Origin: a virus
Lineage: Duplodnaviria; Caudoviricetes
IMG/VR virus record: IMGVR_UViG_3300048999_000032
Span: 1-51,248 of that record
Strand: one strand, 5' to 3'
DNA length: 51,248 nt
A program made the translations under genes and the position numbers. This document shows positions 3,582-21,716 of the stretch, one piece after another (within the stretch, counting starts at the first letter, position 1; each line of letters starts with the position of its first letter). The notes under the pieces were generated by a model, which did not search any database, was not told the origin of the DNA, and worked only from the letters and a program-made list of their open reading frames with translations.

Positions 3582-3651
3582 ATCGACTCCTTGTTAGTCG
3601 GTCACGCTCCGGGGCCGTTCGCGCGGTCGCCGGAGCCTCCCTTTGATTGTC

Positions 3652-17908: not shown

Positions 17909-18216
17909 GGCTTGCCTCCGATGCGCAGTTGGCGCTCAAGCTCAGCGATCTCCTGCTCACGCTTGGCCAGCTCTTCCTGCAGGCGCTTCGGGTCCAGCTG
18001 GTCGGCGGCATTGAAGAGCCAGACGAACGGCCACCGGAACGGCCAGAACAGGAACGTCATCGCAGCACCCATCTGCACGGCGCTGCGCTGCGTGTTGTCG
18101 TACGACCACGACTTGCGCGCCCGGACCCACAGATTCGGCATGTCCTTGAGCGCCAGGACATAGCCGATCGCGAAGTACGCGGCAACCGACCCGAGAGTGA
18201 TCAACAGTGCGAGCAT
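17905..18216 (-). CDS. Membrane protein with C-terminal coiled coil
   Basis: Two hydrophobic segments; FWPF motif. Confidence 0.7.
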   Translation of the reverse strand: MLALLITLGSVAAYFAIGYVLALKDMPNLWVRARKSWSYDNTQRSAVQMGAAMTFLFWPFRWPFVWLFNAADQLDPKRLQEELAKREQEIAELERQLRIGGKP

Positions 18217-18494
18217 CACGCACCCCGCTTCGGATCGTTGACGACCCTGACGTGAACGCGGATCCCCAGTACTTCCTTGGACCAGACGCCGTTGACGACC
18301 TGCGACCGCATGATCCGGCCACCCACAGCGGCACGCCACGCCAGCACCTCGAAGTCAGTGCCTTCGACCAGCACCCACAGGCGCCCGTTCTCAGTGGCGT
18401 ACTCCCACTTGCCCTGCCAGAGCTGTGGGTGGAGGGCAACCACGTCCTCGATCCACGCCATTGTCGCGGAGTGGCGCTCTTCGGTGGCCATCAC
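18216..18494 (-). CDS. Hypothetical protein
   Basis: Coupled ORF. Confidence 0.6.
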   Translation of the reverse strand: MMATEERHSATMAWIEDVVALHPQLWQGKWEYATENGRLWVLVEGTDFEVLAWRAAVGGRIMRSQVVNGVWSKEVLGIRVHVRVVNDPKRGA

Positions 18495-18706
18495 CGGATC
18501 TCACCGCCAACCGGCACCAGCTGCGCGTACCACGACTTCAGGTGGAGCAGACCCTCATTGCCGGTCGCGCTGAACGCGTACCGCCAGTTCACCGCGCCGC
18601 CCGCAGGCTTCAGTTCCGCCACAACGAACGCGGCACCGTCCGGCTCGAGGATGATCGTCATGCCGACCTCGACATCGGCGCCGGCTACCGCGAACGGCGC
18701 GGTCAC
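18491..18706 (-). CDS. Hypothetical protein
   Basis: Coupled ORF. Confidence 0.6.
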   Translation of the reverse strand: MTAPFAVAGADVEVGMTIILEPDGAAFVVAELKPAGGAVNWRYAFSATGNEGLLHLKSWYAQLVPVGGEIR

Positions 18707-18858
18707 TTCTTGCCTTGCTTCTTCGCACGCTGCCGTGCGACCTCGTCCTTCTTGGCCTTCTGCTCACGCTCGATGTCGACCAGGAACCGGCCCGCCTTCG
18801 TCGCGTGGATCTTGCCCGCGTTCGGCTTCGACTTACCGAAGATCCCCACTGCTAACAT
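18703..18858 (-). CDS. Small basic protein (51 aa)
   Basis: MLAVGIFGKSKPNAGKIHATKAGRFLVDIERE...; AAGGGGAG RBS. Confidence 0.5.
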   Translation of the reverse strand: MLAVGIFGKSKPNAGKIHATKAGRFLVDIEREQKAKKDEVARQRAKKQGKK

Positions 18859-18923
18859 CTCCCTTGTTCGTCGCCCCAGGTCCTGACTCGACGGTTGTGG
18901 CCTGGGGCGTCGGCATGTTCTGA

Positions 18924-19340
18924 CTAGGCGCCCTTCGCGAGCGCGTTGATTGCAGCTGCGAATTCCTTGAGGTGGCTGTACTTCCGTTTGAGCGCGGCAA
19001 TGTCGCGCTCCATGGCCTGCAGCACCAGCGCCCGCGTGAACTCGTCAGCGACGGCATCCACGGTGGGCATGTAGGTGGGCTGAGGGTCGGTGCCGCGGGA
19101 CACCGAGACGAACTCGCGAATGTGCCGCGGTCGCTTCGGGTTGCGGTTGTCCGTGATCTTCACGGACCGGATGAGCCGGCGGGCCTGTTCGCGGCGGTGG
19201 ACTTCGCCTGCGATGGCGTCGTTCCATTCGAACCGGTCATGCAGCGGGTGGTCTTCAGGGCGGGCCAGGTCTACGACCAGCGCAGGCGTTAGTTCCCCGC
19301 GCTGGTCGTAGATGGCCTGAAGGCTGTCACGCAGGCTCAT
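18924..19340 (-). CDS. Array-associated accessory protein (138 aa)
   Basis: GELTPALVVDLARPEDHPLHDRFEWND...QARRLI motif; ATG directly abuts the last GGYNN repeats. Confidence 0.8.
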   Translation of the reverse strand: MSLRDSLQAIYDQRGELTPALVVDLARPEDHPLHDRFEWNDAIAGEVHRREQARRLIRSVKITDNRNPKRPRHIREFVSVSRGTDPQPTYMPTVDAVADEFTRALVLQAMERDIAALKRKYSHLKEFAAAINALAKGA

Positions 19341-19946
19341 GCCACACCTGCCACGAGATGCCGCGCCCAACCGAGCGATGCCGGGCCCAACCCTGCAGTG
19401 CCCTGCCCAACCTGCCGTGCCGAGCCATACCTGGCCCCGACAAGCCCTAACCGGCCCCACCCAGCCACATCGAGCCGTACCATGCCTGCCAGACCGTGCC
19501 GGGACTTACCCCGACATGCCCCGCCTGCCCCGACATACCGCACCGAGCCCCGCCAAGCCTTGACCTGCCTGCCAAGCCGCGCCATACCTGGCGCTGCCAT
19601 GCTCTGCCGATCCCCGCCTGCCGTGCCCTGACTAGCCGGACCGCGCACTGACGAACCGAGCCACACCCCGCCTGCCACGCCGTAACGGACCATGACGAAC
19701 CGAGCCAAGCCAGGCCGCGCGAAGTCGAACCATGCCTGCCTCGCCATGCCATACCGGGGCTTGACATGCCCAGCCCAGCCAAACCAAGCCTGCCTTGCCG
19801 GAACATGCCGTGACCCGACACGCCTATCCCTGCCTGCCGCGCCGCACCTGACCCCACCGCACCCAACCAAGCCCTGCCGATCCGAGCCTGCCGAGCCCCA
19901 CCACGCCTTGCCGAGACAAGCCGTGCCACGACCTTCCACGCCTGCC
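19341..19946 (-). ncRNA. GGY-NN pentamer array: 11 putative guide-RNA units separated by GGCA
   Basis: GGCAGG boundaries spaced 54,54,44,54,64,54,49,44,39,74,64 nt (all 5n+4); 110 pentamers, of which 80 start GGY, 16 GTY, 4 GGA; last two bases variable. The repeat structure is directly visible; the RNA role is inferred. Confidence 0.85.
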
Positions 19947-19950
19947 GTGC

Positions 19951-20574
19951 TCACGACATCACCGTCACGTCGCGGGACGGGTCGATCTTGAAGGTGCCGA
20001 AGTCACCCTTCTTCTCCGGTCGCCACTCCCCGATGCCGCAGCCGAGACCGCCGGCGTCGATCAGGGACAGCACCGACTCACGGGTCAGCGACGACTTCAC
20101 GAACGTGACCTCGAGCTCGGTCGACCACTCCGGGAACTCCGGGCGGTAGCGCAGGTCCGAGCTCCCCATGCCGATGCGGACCACGTCCTCCCGCATGCGC
20201 GGCTCTCCGGTCAGTACGGCGAGCGGCTGCGGGTCAGCGTCGGACAGGACGCCCTTGAAGAACAGGAACTGCCGCAGGTCGGTCATGCGGACGTCCTTGC
20301 CGTAGAACCGGGCCGCCCCGACCGTCGCCGACTTGAAAGCGATCATCGGGAAGCCGTAGCCGTCCTTCGTCCGGTAGAACGCGGCGAGGTACTCGGCTTC
20401 CGGATCACGCGCCACCTTCGGAGACTTCCGGCCCTGCTGCGCGTCGAGCATCTGCTTCTTCGCCTTCTCGCTGAAGCGGTGAACGATGAGCGGCGCAGTG
20501 CCGACGATCGGGACGATGAGCGTCTCGGCGTCGATGCGGGAGATGTTGACCTGTGCGGATGCCGCGGTGACCAT
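19951..20574 (-). CDS. Stand-alone Cas7/RAMP-like protein (207 aa), putative RNA-guided effector
   Basis: RAMP-like motifs: IVPIVGTAPLIVH (beta1), YGFPMIAFKSA (cf. IPGSSLKG), RYRPEF..W, C-terminal Gly loop GGLGCGIGEWRPEKKGDFGTF; AAGGAG RBS. Confidence 0.8.
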   Translation of the reverse strand: MVTAASAQVNISRIDAETLIVPIVGTAPLIVHRFSEKAKKQMLDAQQGRKSPKVARDPEAEYLAAFYRTKDGYGFPMIAFKSATVGAARFYGKDVRMTDLRQFLFFKGVLSDADPQPLAVLTGEPRMREDVVRIGMGSSDLRYRPEFPEWSTELEVTFVKSSLTRESVLSLIDAGGLGCGIGEWRPEKKGDFGTFKIDPSRDVTVMS

Positions 20575-20717
20575 GCGATACTCCTTGTGTGTTGTAAGGG
20601 CTGGTGTCTCTTTCCGGGGATCCAGCCCTTCGGCTTTTCTCTTGTGAAGTGGAGCTCCTGATGGCCGCCGCCAGACCGGACCGGGGGGCAGTCCGCGGCC
20701 GATGGCCATCAGGAGGA

Positions 20718-20912
20718 CTAGGCGACCGTCCGTGTGTTCCGGTCGATGTACTGCTGCAGGTCTGCTTCCGCGACGCGGGACTTCCCGCGGACCTCGACAA
20801 CCGGCAGGTCGCCGTCAGAGATCAGGCGGTACACGGTGTTGCGGCTGACCTTCAGCCGGTCGGCCACCTGCGGGATGGTGAGCACCTCGGCGGGAATTCG
20901 CTCGTCGCTCAC
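20718..20912 (-). CDS. xis: Excisionase / HTH_17 DNA-binding protein
   Basis: LTIPQVADRLKVSRNTVYRLISDGDLPVVEVRGKSRV; start position uncertain. Confidence 0.85.
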   Translation of the reverse strand: MSDERIPAEVLTIPQVADRLKVSRNTVYRLISDGDLPVVEVRGKSRVAEADLQQYIDRNTRTVA

Positions 20913-21061
20913 GCGATCACCAACCAAATCAGTAGGAGCGCGACGACGGCCACGCGGACCATAAGGAGCGGGCAGCCTTTCGGCTTCGGAGACTCCTTCA
21001 TTAACCACATCTGAGCCTCCGTGCATCACGCTGAATCTGAGTGTGTCTTGCTGTGTCAGCG

Positions 21062-21091
21062 ACGGTAGCACCGGGGATTAAGAGTCCGCAA
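21062..21091 (-). promoter_or_regulatory. Putative leftward early promoter
   Basis: TTGCGG-18 nt-TACCGT on the minus strand, upstream of xis. Confidence 0.4.
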
Positions 21092-21220
21092 GGGTTTGGG
21101 TGGGTCAAGCTGTGTCAGAGTGTTCCGAGATGAATCTGGACGTGTCGGCCTGCGCCATGTACCGTGAAGCAGGATGGGACACGGTGCAACACGGTGAGAC
21201 AAGGGGAGGTGAAACAGAGC

Positions 21221-21562
21221 ATGCTTCTCTTCATGATCGATGCGCGCGGGCGGACCCTGATCGGAGAAACCGTCAAGGCGGTCATGGCGTGGGAGGGCTA
21301 CACCGGTGTCGGGATCGACAGCACCGGCAGAGTCAGTCGCGCCACCATCAACCGGGCCAAACGCGGCGACGTCATCTCGGACACCATGCTCCGCGCCCTG
21401 GGGGACGCGCTAGGTCTACCGCGGGACTACCTGCTGTATGTGGGAGCCGGCGACGTCCGCAAGATCCAGGCATCTGGCGCAGACCCCGACCTCATCCGCT
21501 GGACTACGGACCTCATCCAGACCAGTCACCCGCAGGATGACAAAGCTACGCATATCCAATGA
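21221..21562 (+). CDS. Xre-like HTH regulator (candidate repressor)
   Basis: GRVSRATINRAKRG...TMLRALGDALG; divergent from xis; GGAGGT RBS. Confidence 0.7.
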   Translation: MLLFMIDARGRTLIGETVKAVMAWEGYTGVGIDSTGRVSRATINRAKRGDVISDTMLRALGDALGLPRDYLLYVGAGDVRKIQASGADPDLIRWTTDLIQTSHPQDDKATHIQ

Positions 21563-21716
21563 CCGACACGCAGTGTTACCGAATCGAGATTGAACTGTGC
21601 GTAACCTTTTGATCGATCGAACGGATGGAGCTTTAGGGGCACGCCTGCGACGGGGGCGGACGAGTCGCTATCAGCTACAGCGACGATTCGGAAGAGGGGT
21701 AAGTGTGAAACGGAGA

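What the first reader, a model, noticed from the sequence alone, without database searches (positions are those of the whole stretch)
19341..19946. Exact grammar of the array: 11 units of GGCA + (GGY-NN)n
On the minus strand, GGCAGG junctions fall every 54,54,44,54,64,54,49,44,39,74,64 nt. That is one 4-nt GGCA plus 10,10,8,10,12,10,9,8,7,14,12 pentamers, with no indel in 594 nt. Example, unit 1: GGCA GGCGT GGAAG GTCGT GGCAC GGCTT GTCTC GGCAA GGCGT GGTGG GGCTC. Of 110 pentamers, 80 begin GGY, 16 GTY, 4 GGA and 10 other; all four GGA are the second pentamer of a unit. No two units share an NN string. A conserved scaffold with free positions is not what slippage-generated satellites look like. 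The phase-breaking GGCA is a candidate processing or filament-termination signal.
Basis: seen in the sequence. Interest (0 to 1): 0.9.

Follow-up and report, generated by a model that had tools for sequence, protein, structure and literature searches.

The report
Staggered VIPR guide-RNA array in phage
The five-base rhythm is the guide-RNA array of a phage VIPR system, a CRISPR-like DNA-silencing system first described in 2026, so it is a new example of a known kind; one of its eleven guides spells the active-site codons of a bacterial defence-linked regulator gene.

Summary
On the minus strand, 19946-19353 parses without indel into 11 units of GGCA plus 10,10,8,10,12,10,9,8,7,14,12 pentamers.

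It is not a new kind. The gene upstream (19951-20574) is a Vipr protein. A family profile hits the solved 'SUSP1 Vipr protein' at E 8.6e-14, and the model has a Cas7/RAMP fold. Three 2026 preprints describe VIPR: Vipr filaments on GGY/NN guide RNAs whose NN letters read double-stranded DNA while skipping every third base. They include 'staggered' arrays with 1-nt overlaps, which is what the GGCA step is.

94 of 98 loci encoding a relative carry such an array, always on the gene's strand. This scan has reported VIPR arrays before on other DNA, in at least 667 genomes.

New here: unit 11 belongs to the most widely shared guide family in this clade. Under the published skip rule it reads the HExxH codons of HTH-Peptidase_M78 genes, with a best match of 22 of 24 letters. 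Shuffled guides never exceed 17.

Untested: transcription, and cutting at GGCA. No target was found for the other ten guides.

The parts
19951..20574 (-). vipr gene: 207-aa Vipr protein, a minimal Cas7-like RAMP
   Evidence: PHROG phrog_4652, E 4e-41. A profile of 96 relatives hits PDB 36pp_D 'SUSP1 Vipr protein' at E 8.6e-14. The AlphaFold model has pLDDT 95.7. Its top Foldseek hits are type III and type VII Cas7/Csm3 chains, E 3e-6, probability 1.0. Residues aligned to the published RNA contacts are H32, R144, E183, W184 and R185, kept in 86, 96, 75 (+20 D), 82 and 96 of 96 relatives.
19353..19946 (-). staggered vrRNA array: 11 complete units of GGCA + (GGY-NN)n, 594 nt
   Evidence: It starts 4 nt after the vipr stop codon.
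19893..19946 (-). unit 1, 10 pentamers
   Evidence: No target found.
19839..19892 (-). unit 2, 10 pentamers
   Evidence: There is a 16/20 near-match in the window's own early intergenic region at 21085-21113, at chance level.
19795..19838 (-). unit 3, 8 pentamers
19741..19794 (-). unit 4, 10 pentamers
19677..19740 (-). unit 5, 12 pentamers
   Evidence: The stretch 19670-19740 is also laid by contigs of three other soil runs from three studies (table 8).
19623..19676 (-). unit 6, 10 pentamers
19574..19622 (-). unit 7, 9 pentamers
19530..19573 (-). unit 8, 8 pentamers
19491..19529 (-). unit 9, 7 pentamers
19417..19490 (-). unit 10, 14 pentamers
19353..19416 (-). unit 11, 12 pentamers: a guide that reads the HExxH codons of HTH-Peptidase_M78 genes
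19339..19352 (-). truncated twelfth unit (GGCA + 2 pentamers) that runs into the ATG of the next gene
   Evidence: The same array end followed by a start codon is seen in L020.
18924..19340 (-). vap-like accessory gene, 138 aa, possibly a winged-helix DNA binder
   Evidence: phrog_15946, E 5e-37. A homologue lies on the same strand in 142 of 178 vipr loci. The model has pLDDT 93.6. Its best fold matches are forkhead and MarR-type winged-helix domains, but only weakly: E 0.15, probability 0.93.

Best explanation
The array is the guide-RNA (vrRNA) array of a phage-borne VIPR system in its 'staggered' architecture. It lies between the vipr gene and a vap-like accessory gene in the early leftward operon of a temperate actinobacterial-type phage.

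Shown here: the Vipr homology and fold, the GGY-NN grammar, its strand-specific linkage to vipr across many phages, and a skip-rule match of one guide.

Inferred from the three VIPR preprints: the operon transcript is cut or bounded at each GGCA step into 11 guides of 7-14 repeats. One Vipr protomer binds each repeat and hides G, G and Y. The exposed NN pairs with double-stranded DNA that carries NNxNNx, where the skipped base is usually the codon wobble base. The bound filament represses transcription of genes in rival mobile elements or in the host.

The GGCA step is two scaffold pentamers that overlap by one G. It resets the register, and in this architecture it stands where type II guides have a 3' pseudoknot tail.

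Unit 11 is aimed at the zinc-binding HExxH codons of HTH-Peptidase_M78 (ImmA/IrrE-like) regulator genes.
For: Protein: profile hit to the SUSP1 Vipr structure, E 8.6e-14 over 177 positions. Cas7/Csm3 fold. The published GGY-contact residues are conserved.

Linkage:
- 94 of 98 loci encoding a relative have a 5-nt periodic array within 3 kb, against one such stretch in the whole 51-kb window.
- With the metagenome loci added, 158 of 179 loci have an array.
- All 120 of 120 arrays are G-rich on the vipr strand, and GGCAG occurs almost only on that strand.
- The array may lie upstream (Donkeykong), directly downstream (the window, UmaThurman) or after vap.

Unit size: 775 bounded units have 7-16 pentamers, with the mode at 9-10. 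The published range is 9-16.

Not coding: only 41 of 120 arrays have any open frame, and the low-GC array of L080 has 10-14 stops in every frame.

Literature: main-text sections read; the fig. S18 legend.

Guide test:
- Unit 11 under the 1-nt skip rule puts its best hit on the HExxH motif in 35 of 56 Peptidase_M78 loci and reaches 18 or more of 24 letters in 25.
- Its best is 22/24.
- 20 shuffles of its NN order never exceed 17 in 1120 locus scans, and skips of 0, 2 or 3 never exceed 17.
- Between loci the scaffold triplets of this guide differ while its NN letters stay. The NN differences are I/M, L or F exchanges only when read on the opposite strand.

The phage record, 100% complete by CheckV, has no Peptidase_M78 gene of its own.
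Against: - There is no RNA evidence for this locus or for any staggered array. Transcription, cutting at GGCA and loading onto Vipr are inferred.
- Three of the 11 units (7, 8 and 8 repeats) are shorter than the published 9-16.
- 10 of 110 pentamers break the scaffold.
- Ten of 11 guides have no match above shuffled controls in the 1.68 Mb I could scan.
- Only 7 of 56 M78 loci reach the preprint's 80% line for unit 11 (20 or more of 24). None of these genomes is known to be the phage's host.
- One frame is open across the whole array, with GTGA and ATGA overlaps to its neighbours. This looks like a coupled gene.
- The vap-like gene could not be matched to the published vap1-6 classes.
Confidence: 0.93

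Rival explanations
1. The stretch is a protein-coding gene (ORF 19337-19954, 205 aa, rich in Gly, Arg, Ala and Trp), translationally coupled to its neighbours.
For: The frame is open over all 618 nt. Its GTG overlaps the upstream stop (GTGA) and its stop overlaps the downstream ATG (ATGA). Curated phage records annotate the equivalent stretch as a hypothetical protein: Donkeykong gene 48 and UmaThurman gene 40.
Against: - The periodicity is 5, not 3: lag 3 gives 0.22 against 0.32 in the flanking gene.
- The ORF did not pass my GC3/GC2 coding filter.
- It has no Pfam or PHROG match.
- Only 41 of 120 related arrays keep any open frame, and long or low-GC arrays have many stops in all three frames.
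- Ecliptus leaves the stretch unannotated.
- A G-rich GGYNN repeat has few stop codons by composition.
Confidence: 0.02
2. It is a genuine VIPR array, but the GGCA steps are not cut. Vipr coats one long transcript, and each 4-nt step only resets the register. The units would then act as linked filament segments rather than as separate guides.
For: Nothing beyond GGCA+G is conserved at 869 junctions, so there is no hairpin or tail that a nuclease or a cap would recognise. No nuclease gene is in the operon. The preprint did not confirm staggered arrays by small-RNA sequencing.
Against: The fig. S18 legend speaks of 'individual processed vrRNAs'. Unit sizes cluster at 7-14 repeats like single guides. 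Units turn over as blocks: in a related contig, units 1-3 are replaced by 105 other letters while units 5-6 stay (table 5).
Confidence: 0.12
3. It is a DNA-level element: a protein-binding iteron array, a replication origin, or an R-loop or G-quadruplex-forming tract made by the G-rich non-template strand.
For: The G-rich strand is always the non-template strand of the operon. The array folds more stably than shuffles, z -3.9 with 20 shuffles.
Against: - The GTC-NN arrays of L016 have single G's and cannot form G-quartets, yet they keep the same grammar.
- The partner protein is an RNA-binding RAMP homologous to a protein solved with such RNA.
- The NN letters of unit 11 track a protein-coding target. 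A binding-site or R-loop model does not predict this.
Confidence: 0.02
4. It is a slippage-generated pentanucleotide satellite with no function.
For: It is a tandem short-period repeat. TRF reports only weak 19-20-nt periods inside unit 11.
Against: The copies are not alike at NN, and only the scaffold is kept. The same grammar recurs next to the same gene in phages of Actinomycetota, Chloroflexota-type, Pseudomonadota-type and low-GC hosts, with different scaffold letters. One unit is conserved at NN across nine loci while its scaffold drifts.
Confidence: 0.01

Closest known systems
VIPR systems with staggered vrRNA arrays (bioRxiv 10.64898/2026.04.26.720920; main text and the legend of fig. 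S18 read, figure and supplementary tables not seen)
   Same: A lone Vipr RAMP, an accessory gene, GGY/NN pentamer repeats, adjacent guides that overlap by one nucleotide, and a viral genome.
   Different: Nothing categorical. The preprint's text names no actinobacterial phage ('Mycobacteri' and 'Actino' occur 0 times). I could not tell which of its seven types this clade is. Its main text does not report small-RNA data for staggered arrays.
Type II VIPR of Escherichia phage SUSP1 and the Pseudomonas fulva prophage (same preprint; structures in bioRxiv 10.64898/2026.04.26.720927; biology in 10.64898/2026.10.15.759431)
   Same: Homologous Vipr (E 8.6e-14 to PDB 36pp_D), conserved GGY-contact residues, 7-14 against 9-16 repeats per guide, and the 1-nt skip rule holds for unit 11.
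   Different: SUSP1 guides are separate genes of about 100 nt, each ending in an invariant 3' tail with a pseudoknot that caps the filament. Here 11 guides abut with only a 4-nt GGCA step and no tail. The vap-like gene has no detectable sequence match to any solved chain.
Class 1 CRISPR Cas7 backbone on crRNA
   Same: Same RAMP fold. One protomer binds per repeat of the guide, and thumb-driven base flipping sets the periodicity (the paper's words).
   Different: Period 5 with 2 pairing letters instead of period 6 with 5. There is no repeat-spacer array, no cas1, cas2 or cas6, and no other cas gene in the operon.
Tweety gp54-type tetrapeptide (12-bp) repeats of cluster F mycobacteriophages (PMC2884959, passages read)
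   Same: A G+C-rich repeat tract in the early region of cluster F phages.
   Different: The period is 12 bp, in frame and coding (Ala-Ala-x-x). It is a different element. Rejected as an explanation.

Membership tests
VIPR system | A Vipr protein: a minimal RAMP with RRM core, G-loop and thumb, homologous to SUSP1 Vipr | tested here: met
   Profile against the PDB: 36pp_D 'SUSP1 Vipr protein', E 8.6e-14. The model's top fold hits are Cas7/Csm3 chains.
VIPR system | Residues that hold G1, G2 and Y3 of each repeat (SUSP1 H17, R138, D177, W178, R179) | tested here: met
   The aligned window residues are H32, R144, E183, W184 and R185. R144 and R185 are invariant in 96 relatives. D to E at 183 is the majority state in this clade.
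VIPR system | Tandem GGY-NN (YNNGG) repeats next to vipr, at least four units, with a conserved scaffold and variable NN | tested here: met
   110 pentamers, 96 of them GGY or GTY. The NN letters are near-uniform at junction-flanking positions in 869 junctions.
VIPR system | 9-16 repeats per vrRNA | tested here: inconclusive
   Eight of 11 units have 9-14 repeats and three have 7 or 8. In the clade, 166 of 775 bounded units have 7 or 8.
VIPR system | A vipr-accessory (vap) gene in the operon | tested here: inconclusive
   A conserved partner gene is present in 142 of 178 loci, with a weak winged-helix-like fold. Identity with vap1-6 could not be tested because no vap sequence is available and the supplements are closed.
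VIPR system | Guides match natural DNA targets under the 1-nt skip rule and not under other skips | tested here: met
   Met for unit 11 only. The other ten units are at the level of shuffled controls in 1.68 Mb of local sequence.
VIPR system | vrRNAs are expressed and bound by Vipr | not testable with these tools
   No run on record as RNA holds the stretch.
Staggered vrRNA array architecture | Adjacent guides overlap by 1 nt, so that the end of one marks the start of the next, with no tail or ribozyme between them | tested here: met
   GGCA followed by GGY equals two pentamers that share one G. The phase drops by one at each of the steps. No Rfam family reaches its gathering score: the two weak microRNA-model hits lie in the vap-like gene at 19261-19319, not in the array.
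Type II VIPR (SUSP1 clade) | An invariant 3' tail with a pseudoknot after each repeat tract | tested here: not met
   Units abut directly, and nothing beyond GGCA+G is conserved at junctions.
CRISPR-Cas | A repeat-spacer array with adaptation and other cas genes | tested here: not met
   There are no CRISPR-like direct repeats in the TRF output. The neighbours are HTH, vap-like and small phage genes.

The most novel reading that the evidence does not exclude
Unit 11 and its relatives in eight other loci are an anti-defence guide. The phage uses VIPR to silence host HTH-Peptidase_M78 regulators by sitting on their unmutable HExxH codons. PADLOC names this family RmrA, and it also resembles CapH/CapP. 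In one genome the gene is embedded in a type I restriction-modification locus. VIPR would then serve phage-against-host counter-defence, or blocking of rival prophage induction, and not only phage-against-phage conflict. A second open point is that the bare GGCA step, with no tail, is enough to bound a Vipr filament.
Probability: 0.25. Interest if true: 0.55.

Novelty: new member of a known kind. Interest (0 to 1): 0.3.

Why it matters
For the finding as given, the answer is that it is explained. It is a clean, fully parsed example of a staggered VIPR array in a complete 51-kb soil phage genome.

It has practical value for annotation. Gene callers and curated actinophage records label these arrays as hypothetical proteins, as in Donkeykong gene 48 and UmaThurman gene 40. 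The 618-nt open frame here would be called the same way.

It has modest scientific value in three respects:
- The staggered architecture has no published RNA data, and this locus (11 guides, no tail, operon-embedded) is a compact test case for how guides are bounded.
- One guide family is shared by nine otherwise diverged loci. It reads the catalytic HExxH codons of HTH-Peptidase_M78 genes. Neither 'peptidase' nor 'metallo' occurs in the main text of the two VIPR biology preprints; their supplementary target tables could not be seen.

Tried and rejected
- Rfam, E-value mode over 18500-21000: only two chance-level microRNA models, both inside the vap-like gene.
- Tweety gp54 tetrapeptide repeats: a different, 12-bp coding repeat.
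- 'pentanucleotide' + 'mycobacteriophage' literature search: only microsatellite surveys.
- Promoter and terminator scan of 18000-21700: no promoter-like site and no minus-strand terminator in the operon. This says little for a high-GC host.
- RNA fold of the array: z -3.9 on 20 shuffles, with no per-unit hairpin evident. I draw nothing from it.
- Target search with the 11 guides (1-nt skip; controls were skips 0, 2 and 3 and shuffled NN order):
  - In the window plus 98 loci.
  - With 388 guides of all loci in 0.66 Mb.
  - In 1.19 Mb after adding sibling-phage loci.
  - In 1.68 Mb.
  - Nothing rose above the controls except unit 11.
  - Unit 2 gives 9 hits of 16/20 against a mean of 2.9 in shuffles. 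At least three of them are one site repeated in near-identical loci, and I did not pursue it.
- No RNA holder is listed for the stretch.
I use only the contig that bridges 19752 to 19936 with 105 other letters, and the pieces listed in table 8.
- The vap-like protein has no Pfam, PADLOC or PDB sequence match.
- I did not determine the host or the VIPR type.
- The tally '143 of 201 genomes with a Peptidase_M78 match' includes one unpublished genome, G073. No locus was taken from it and no other claim rests on it.

Full report
THE OBSERVATION. On the minus strand, 19337-19954 is 46% G. Its base autocorrelation is 0.48 at lag 5 and 0.49 at lag 10, against 0.21-0.25 off phase. The flanking gene instead shows the lag-3 signal of coding DNA. 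In a sliding scan of the whole 51,248-base window this is the only stretch that passes the periodicity threshold.

Tracking the phase of GG[CT] shows a drop of one at each 4-nt GGCA. A truncated twelfth unit runs into the ATG at 19340.

Two details need correction. There are 16 GGCAGG hexamers, not 12, because GGCAG also occurs in phase inside units. The GGA position is a local coincidence, seen in 19 of 775 units elsewhere.

WHAT IT IS. The array begins 4 nt after the stop of a 207-aa gene (19951-20574) and ends on the start codon of a 138-aa gene (18924-19340). Both belong to PHROG families of unknown function and have no Pfam match. They sit in the early leftward operon of a temperate phage, next to an excisionase-like HTH gene, two repressor-like HTH genes and a tyrosine-integrase-sized gene. 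The record is a virus record rated 100% complete.

The 207-aa protein has thousands of relatives: 3378 in one library and 3657 cluster representatives in another. A profile of 96 of them hits one solved chain, 36pp_D, 'SUSP1 Vipr protein', at E 8.6e-14. Its AlphaFold model (pLDDT 95.7) matches Cas7/Csm3 subunits of type III and type VII CRISPR complexes.

Full-text search then found three 2026 preprints. VIPR systems consist of a Vipr RAMP and vrRNAs made of GGY/NN repeats. The NN letters pair with double-stranded DNA while every third target base is skipped, and the result is transcriptional silencing of rival phages and satellites (sections read). Cryo-EM shows one Vipr protomer per repeat. 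It hides G, G and Y and presents NN. The residues named there align to H32, R144, E183, W184 and R185 of the window's protein, and they are conserved in the clade.

The first preprint lists 'staggered arrays with overlapping vrRNAs'. The legend of its fig. S18 says the guides derive from 1-nt overlapping positions and that the end of one marks the start of the next. GGCA followed by GGY is exactly two pentamers that share one G.

INDEPENDENT SUPPORT FROM RELATIVES.
- Of 98 loci that encode a relative, 94 carry a 5-nt periodic array within 3 kb. These were 3 named phages, 15 genome contigs and 80 viral contigs.
- With 80 metagenome loci added, many of them short, the figure is 158 of 179.
- All 120 arrays first found are G-rich on the vipr strand, and GGCAG is almost confined to that strand. 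Only 41 have any open frame.
- The scaffold changes with the host's composition: GGC in high-GC phages, GGT in a 47%-GC phage, and GTC in a Dehalococcoidia-labelled contig. The GGCA step stays.
- Array position varies: upstream of vipr in Mycobacterium phage Donkeykong, directly downstream in Gordonia phage UmaThurman and here, and after the accessory gene in many others.
- Bounded units number 775 with 7-16 pentamers, with the mode at 9-10.
- A homologue of the 138-aa gene lies on the same strand in 142 of 178 loci. Its model (pLDDT 93.6) resembles winged-helix domains only weakly. That would fit the preprint's statement that some vap genes encode DNA-binding proteins, but membership in vap1-6 is untested.

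TURNOVER. A relative whose Vipr is 96% identical keeps the 54-nt length and the scaffold of unit 1 but only 12 of 20 NN letters. In another soil run, one contig joins the vipr 3' end to units 5-6 with 105 other letters in place of the window's 183. That is a replacement of units 1-3 and part of unit 4. The stretch 19670-19740 (unit 5) is laid by contigs from three studies.

WHAT THE GUIDES READ. I scanned the guides under the published rule, with controls of other skip lengths and shuffled NN order. Ten units gave nothing above the controls.

Unit 11 stood out first because its NN string recurs in other loci whose Vipr proteins, where compared (L028, L011, L020, L027), are 63-74% identical to the window's. 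It matched 19-21 of 22-24 letters in L028, L011 and L020, and it forms the largest cross-locus guide family, in nine loci. In these copies the scaffold triplets differ while the NN letters stay. The NN differences are I/M, L or F exchanges only if read on the opposite strand with the skip at the wobble base. The reading is T-[IM]-A-[HQ]-[DE]-[IM]-G-[HQ]-L-V-L-[HQ].

From memory I took this for the HExxH motif of ImmA/IrrE-type peptidases. I tested it on genes fetched by Pfam family alone (PF06114).
- In the first 17 loci, unit 11 gave nine hits of at least 70%, all nine on the motif. There were none under skips 0, 2 or 3, and 200 shuffles gave a mean of 0.51 hits, 0.04 of them on the motif.
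- In 56 loci the best hit lies on the motif in 35 and reaches 18 or more of 24 in 25. The best scores are 22/24 (L171) and 21/24 (L190, L181, L174).
- Shuffles never exceed 17 in 1120 scans.

The best targets are fusions of about 350-420 aa of an XRE-type HTH and Peptidase_M78. PADLOC names them RmrA (E 1e-54 to 1e-63) and also finds CapP/CapH likeness. In L279 the gene lies inside a type I restriction-modification locus; in L280 it does not. The phage itself has no such gene.

This shows that the skip rule applies to a staggered-array guide and points to a target class. It does not show which genome is hit in nature. Only 7 of 56 loci pass the preprint's 80% line, and the host is unknown.

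VERDICT. Processing is not demonstrated. The thing is a new member of a kind published in April 2026 and already met many times in this scan.

Noticed in passing
window 21085-21113 (+): Unit 2 matches 16 of 20 NN letters under the skip rule in the phage's own divergent early intergenic region, between the excisionase-like HTH gene and the repressor-like gene. This is about what chance gives over 11 guides, but the place is the lysis-lysogeny switch.
   Followed up: partly
L029 unit at 3607 -> L028 3481-3509: A guide of one viral contig matches 19 of 20 NN letters inside the vipr gene of a related contig. This looks like VIPR-against-VIPR targeting, which the preprints report for other clades.
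   Followed up: no
L003 (Gordonia phage Ecliptus) 2819-4730: The whole module (HTH gene, vipr, an unannotated array of about 220 nt, a vap-like gene and one more gene) is inserted between the tail assembly chaperone and tape measure genes. The module is therefore mobile.
   Followed up: no
L001 2522-2908 (Donkeykong gene 48); L002 3766-4089 (UmaThurman gene 40); window 19337-19954: Curated phage records annotate the vrRNA array as a hypothetical protein. The window's array is also an open 205-codon frame with GTGA and ATGA overlaps, and would be called a gene.
   Followed up: yes
L026 4541-6590, L091 4591-6590, L008 1841-2940: Some relatives carry arrays of 1 to more than 2 kb (56 GGCAG steps in 2 kb) that run to the end of the fetched locus.
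   Followed up: no
L016 2351-2670; L080 3561-3970: Scaffold variants with the same GGCA punctuation: GTC-NN in a Dehalococcoidia-labelled contig and GGT-NN in a 47%-GC viral contig.
   Followed up: partly
L171 2289-2915 and L190 2289-2915 (-): A 208-aa protein with no Pfam or PADLOC match sits directly upstream of, and overlaps, the HTH-Peptidase_M78 (RmrA-type) gene in two unrelated genomes. It is probably the gene's partner.
   Followed up: no
window 19353-19416: Unit 11 has an internal 20-nt periodicity (TRF rows at 19359-19433) and the most degenerate scaffold of the array (TGC, CGC and CTC triplets), yet it is the guide best conserved across loci.
   Followed up: partly
47 guide pairs across loci, e.g. 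L011/L038/L222/L231 and L040/L041/L233/L252: Other guide families are shared by contigs that are not near-identical; their targets were not sought.
   Followed up: no
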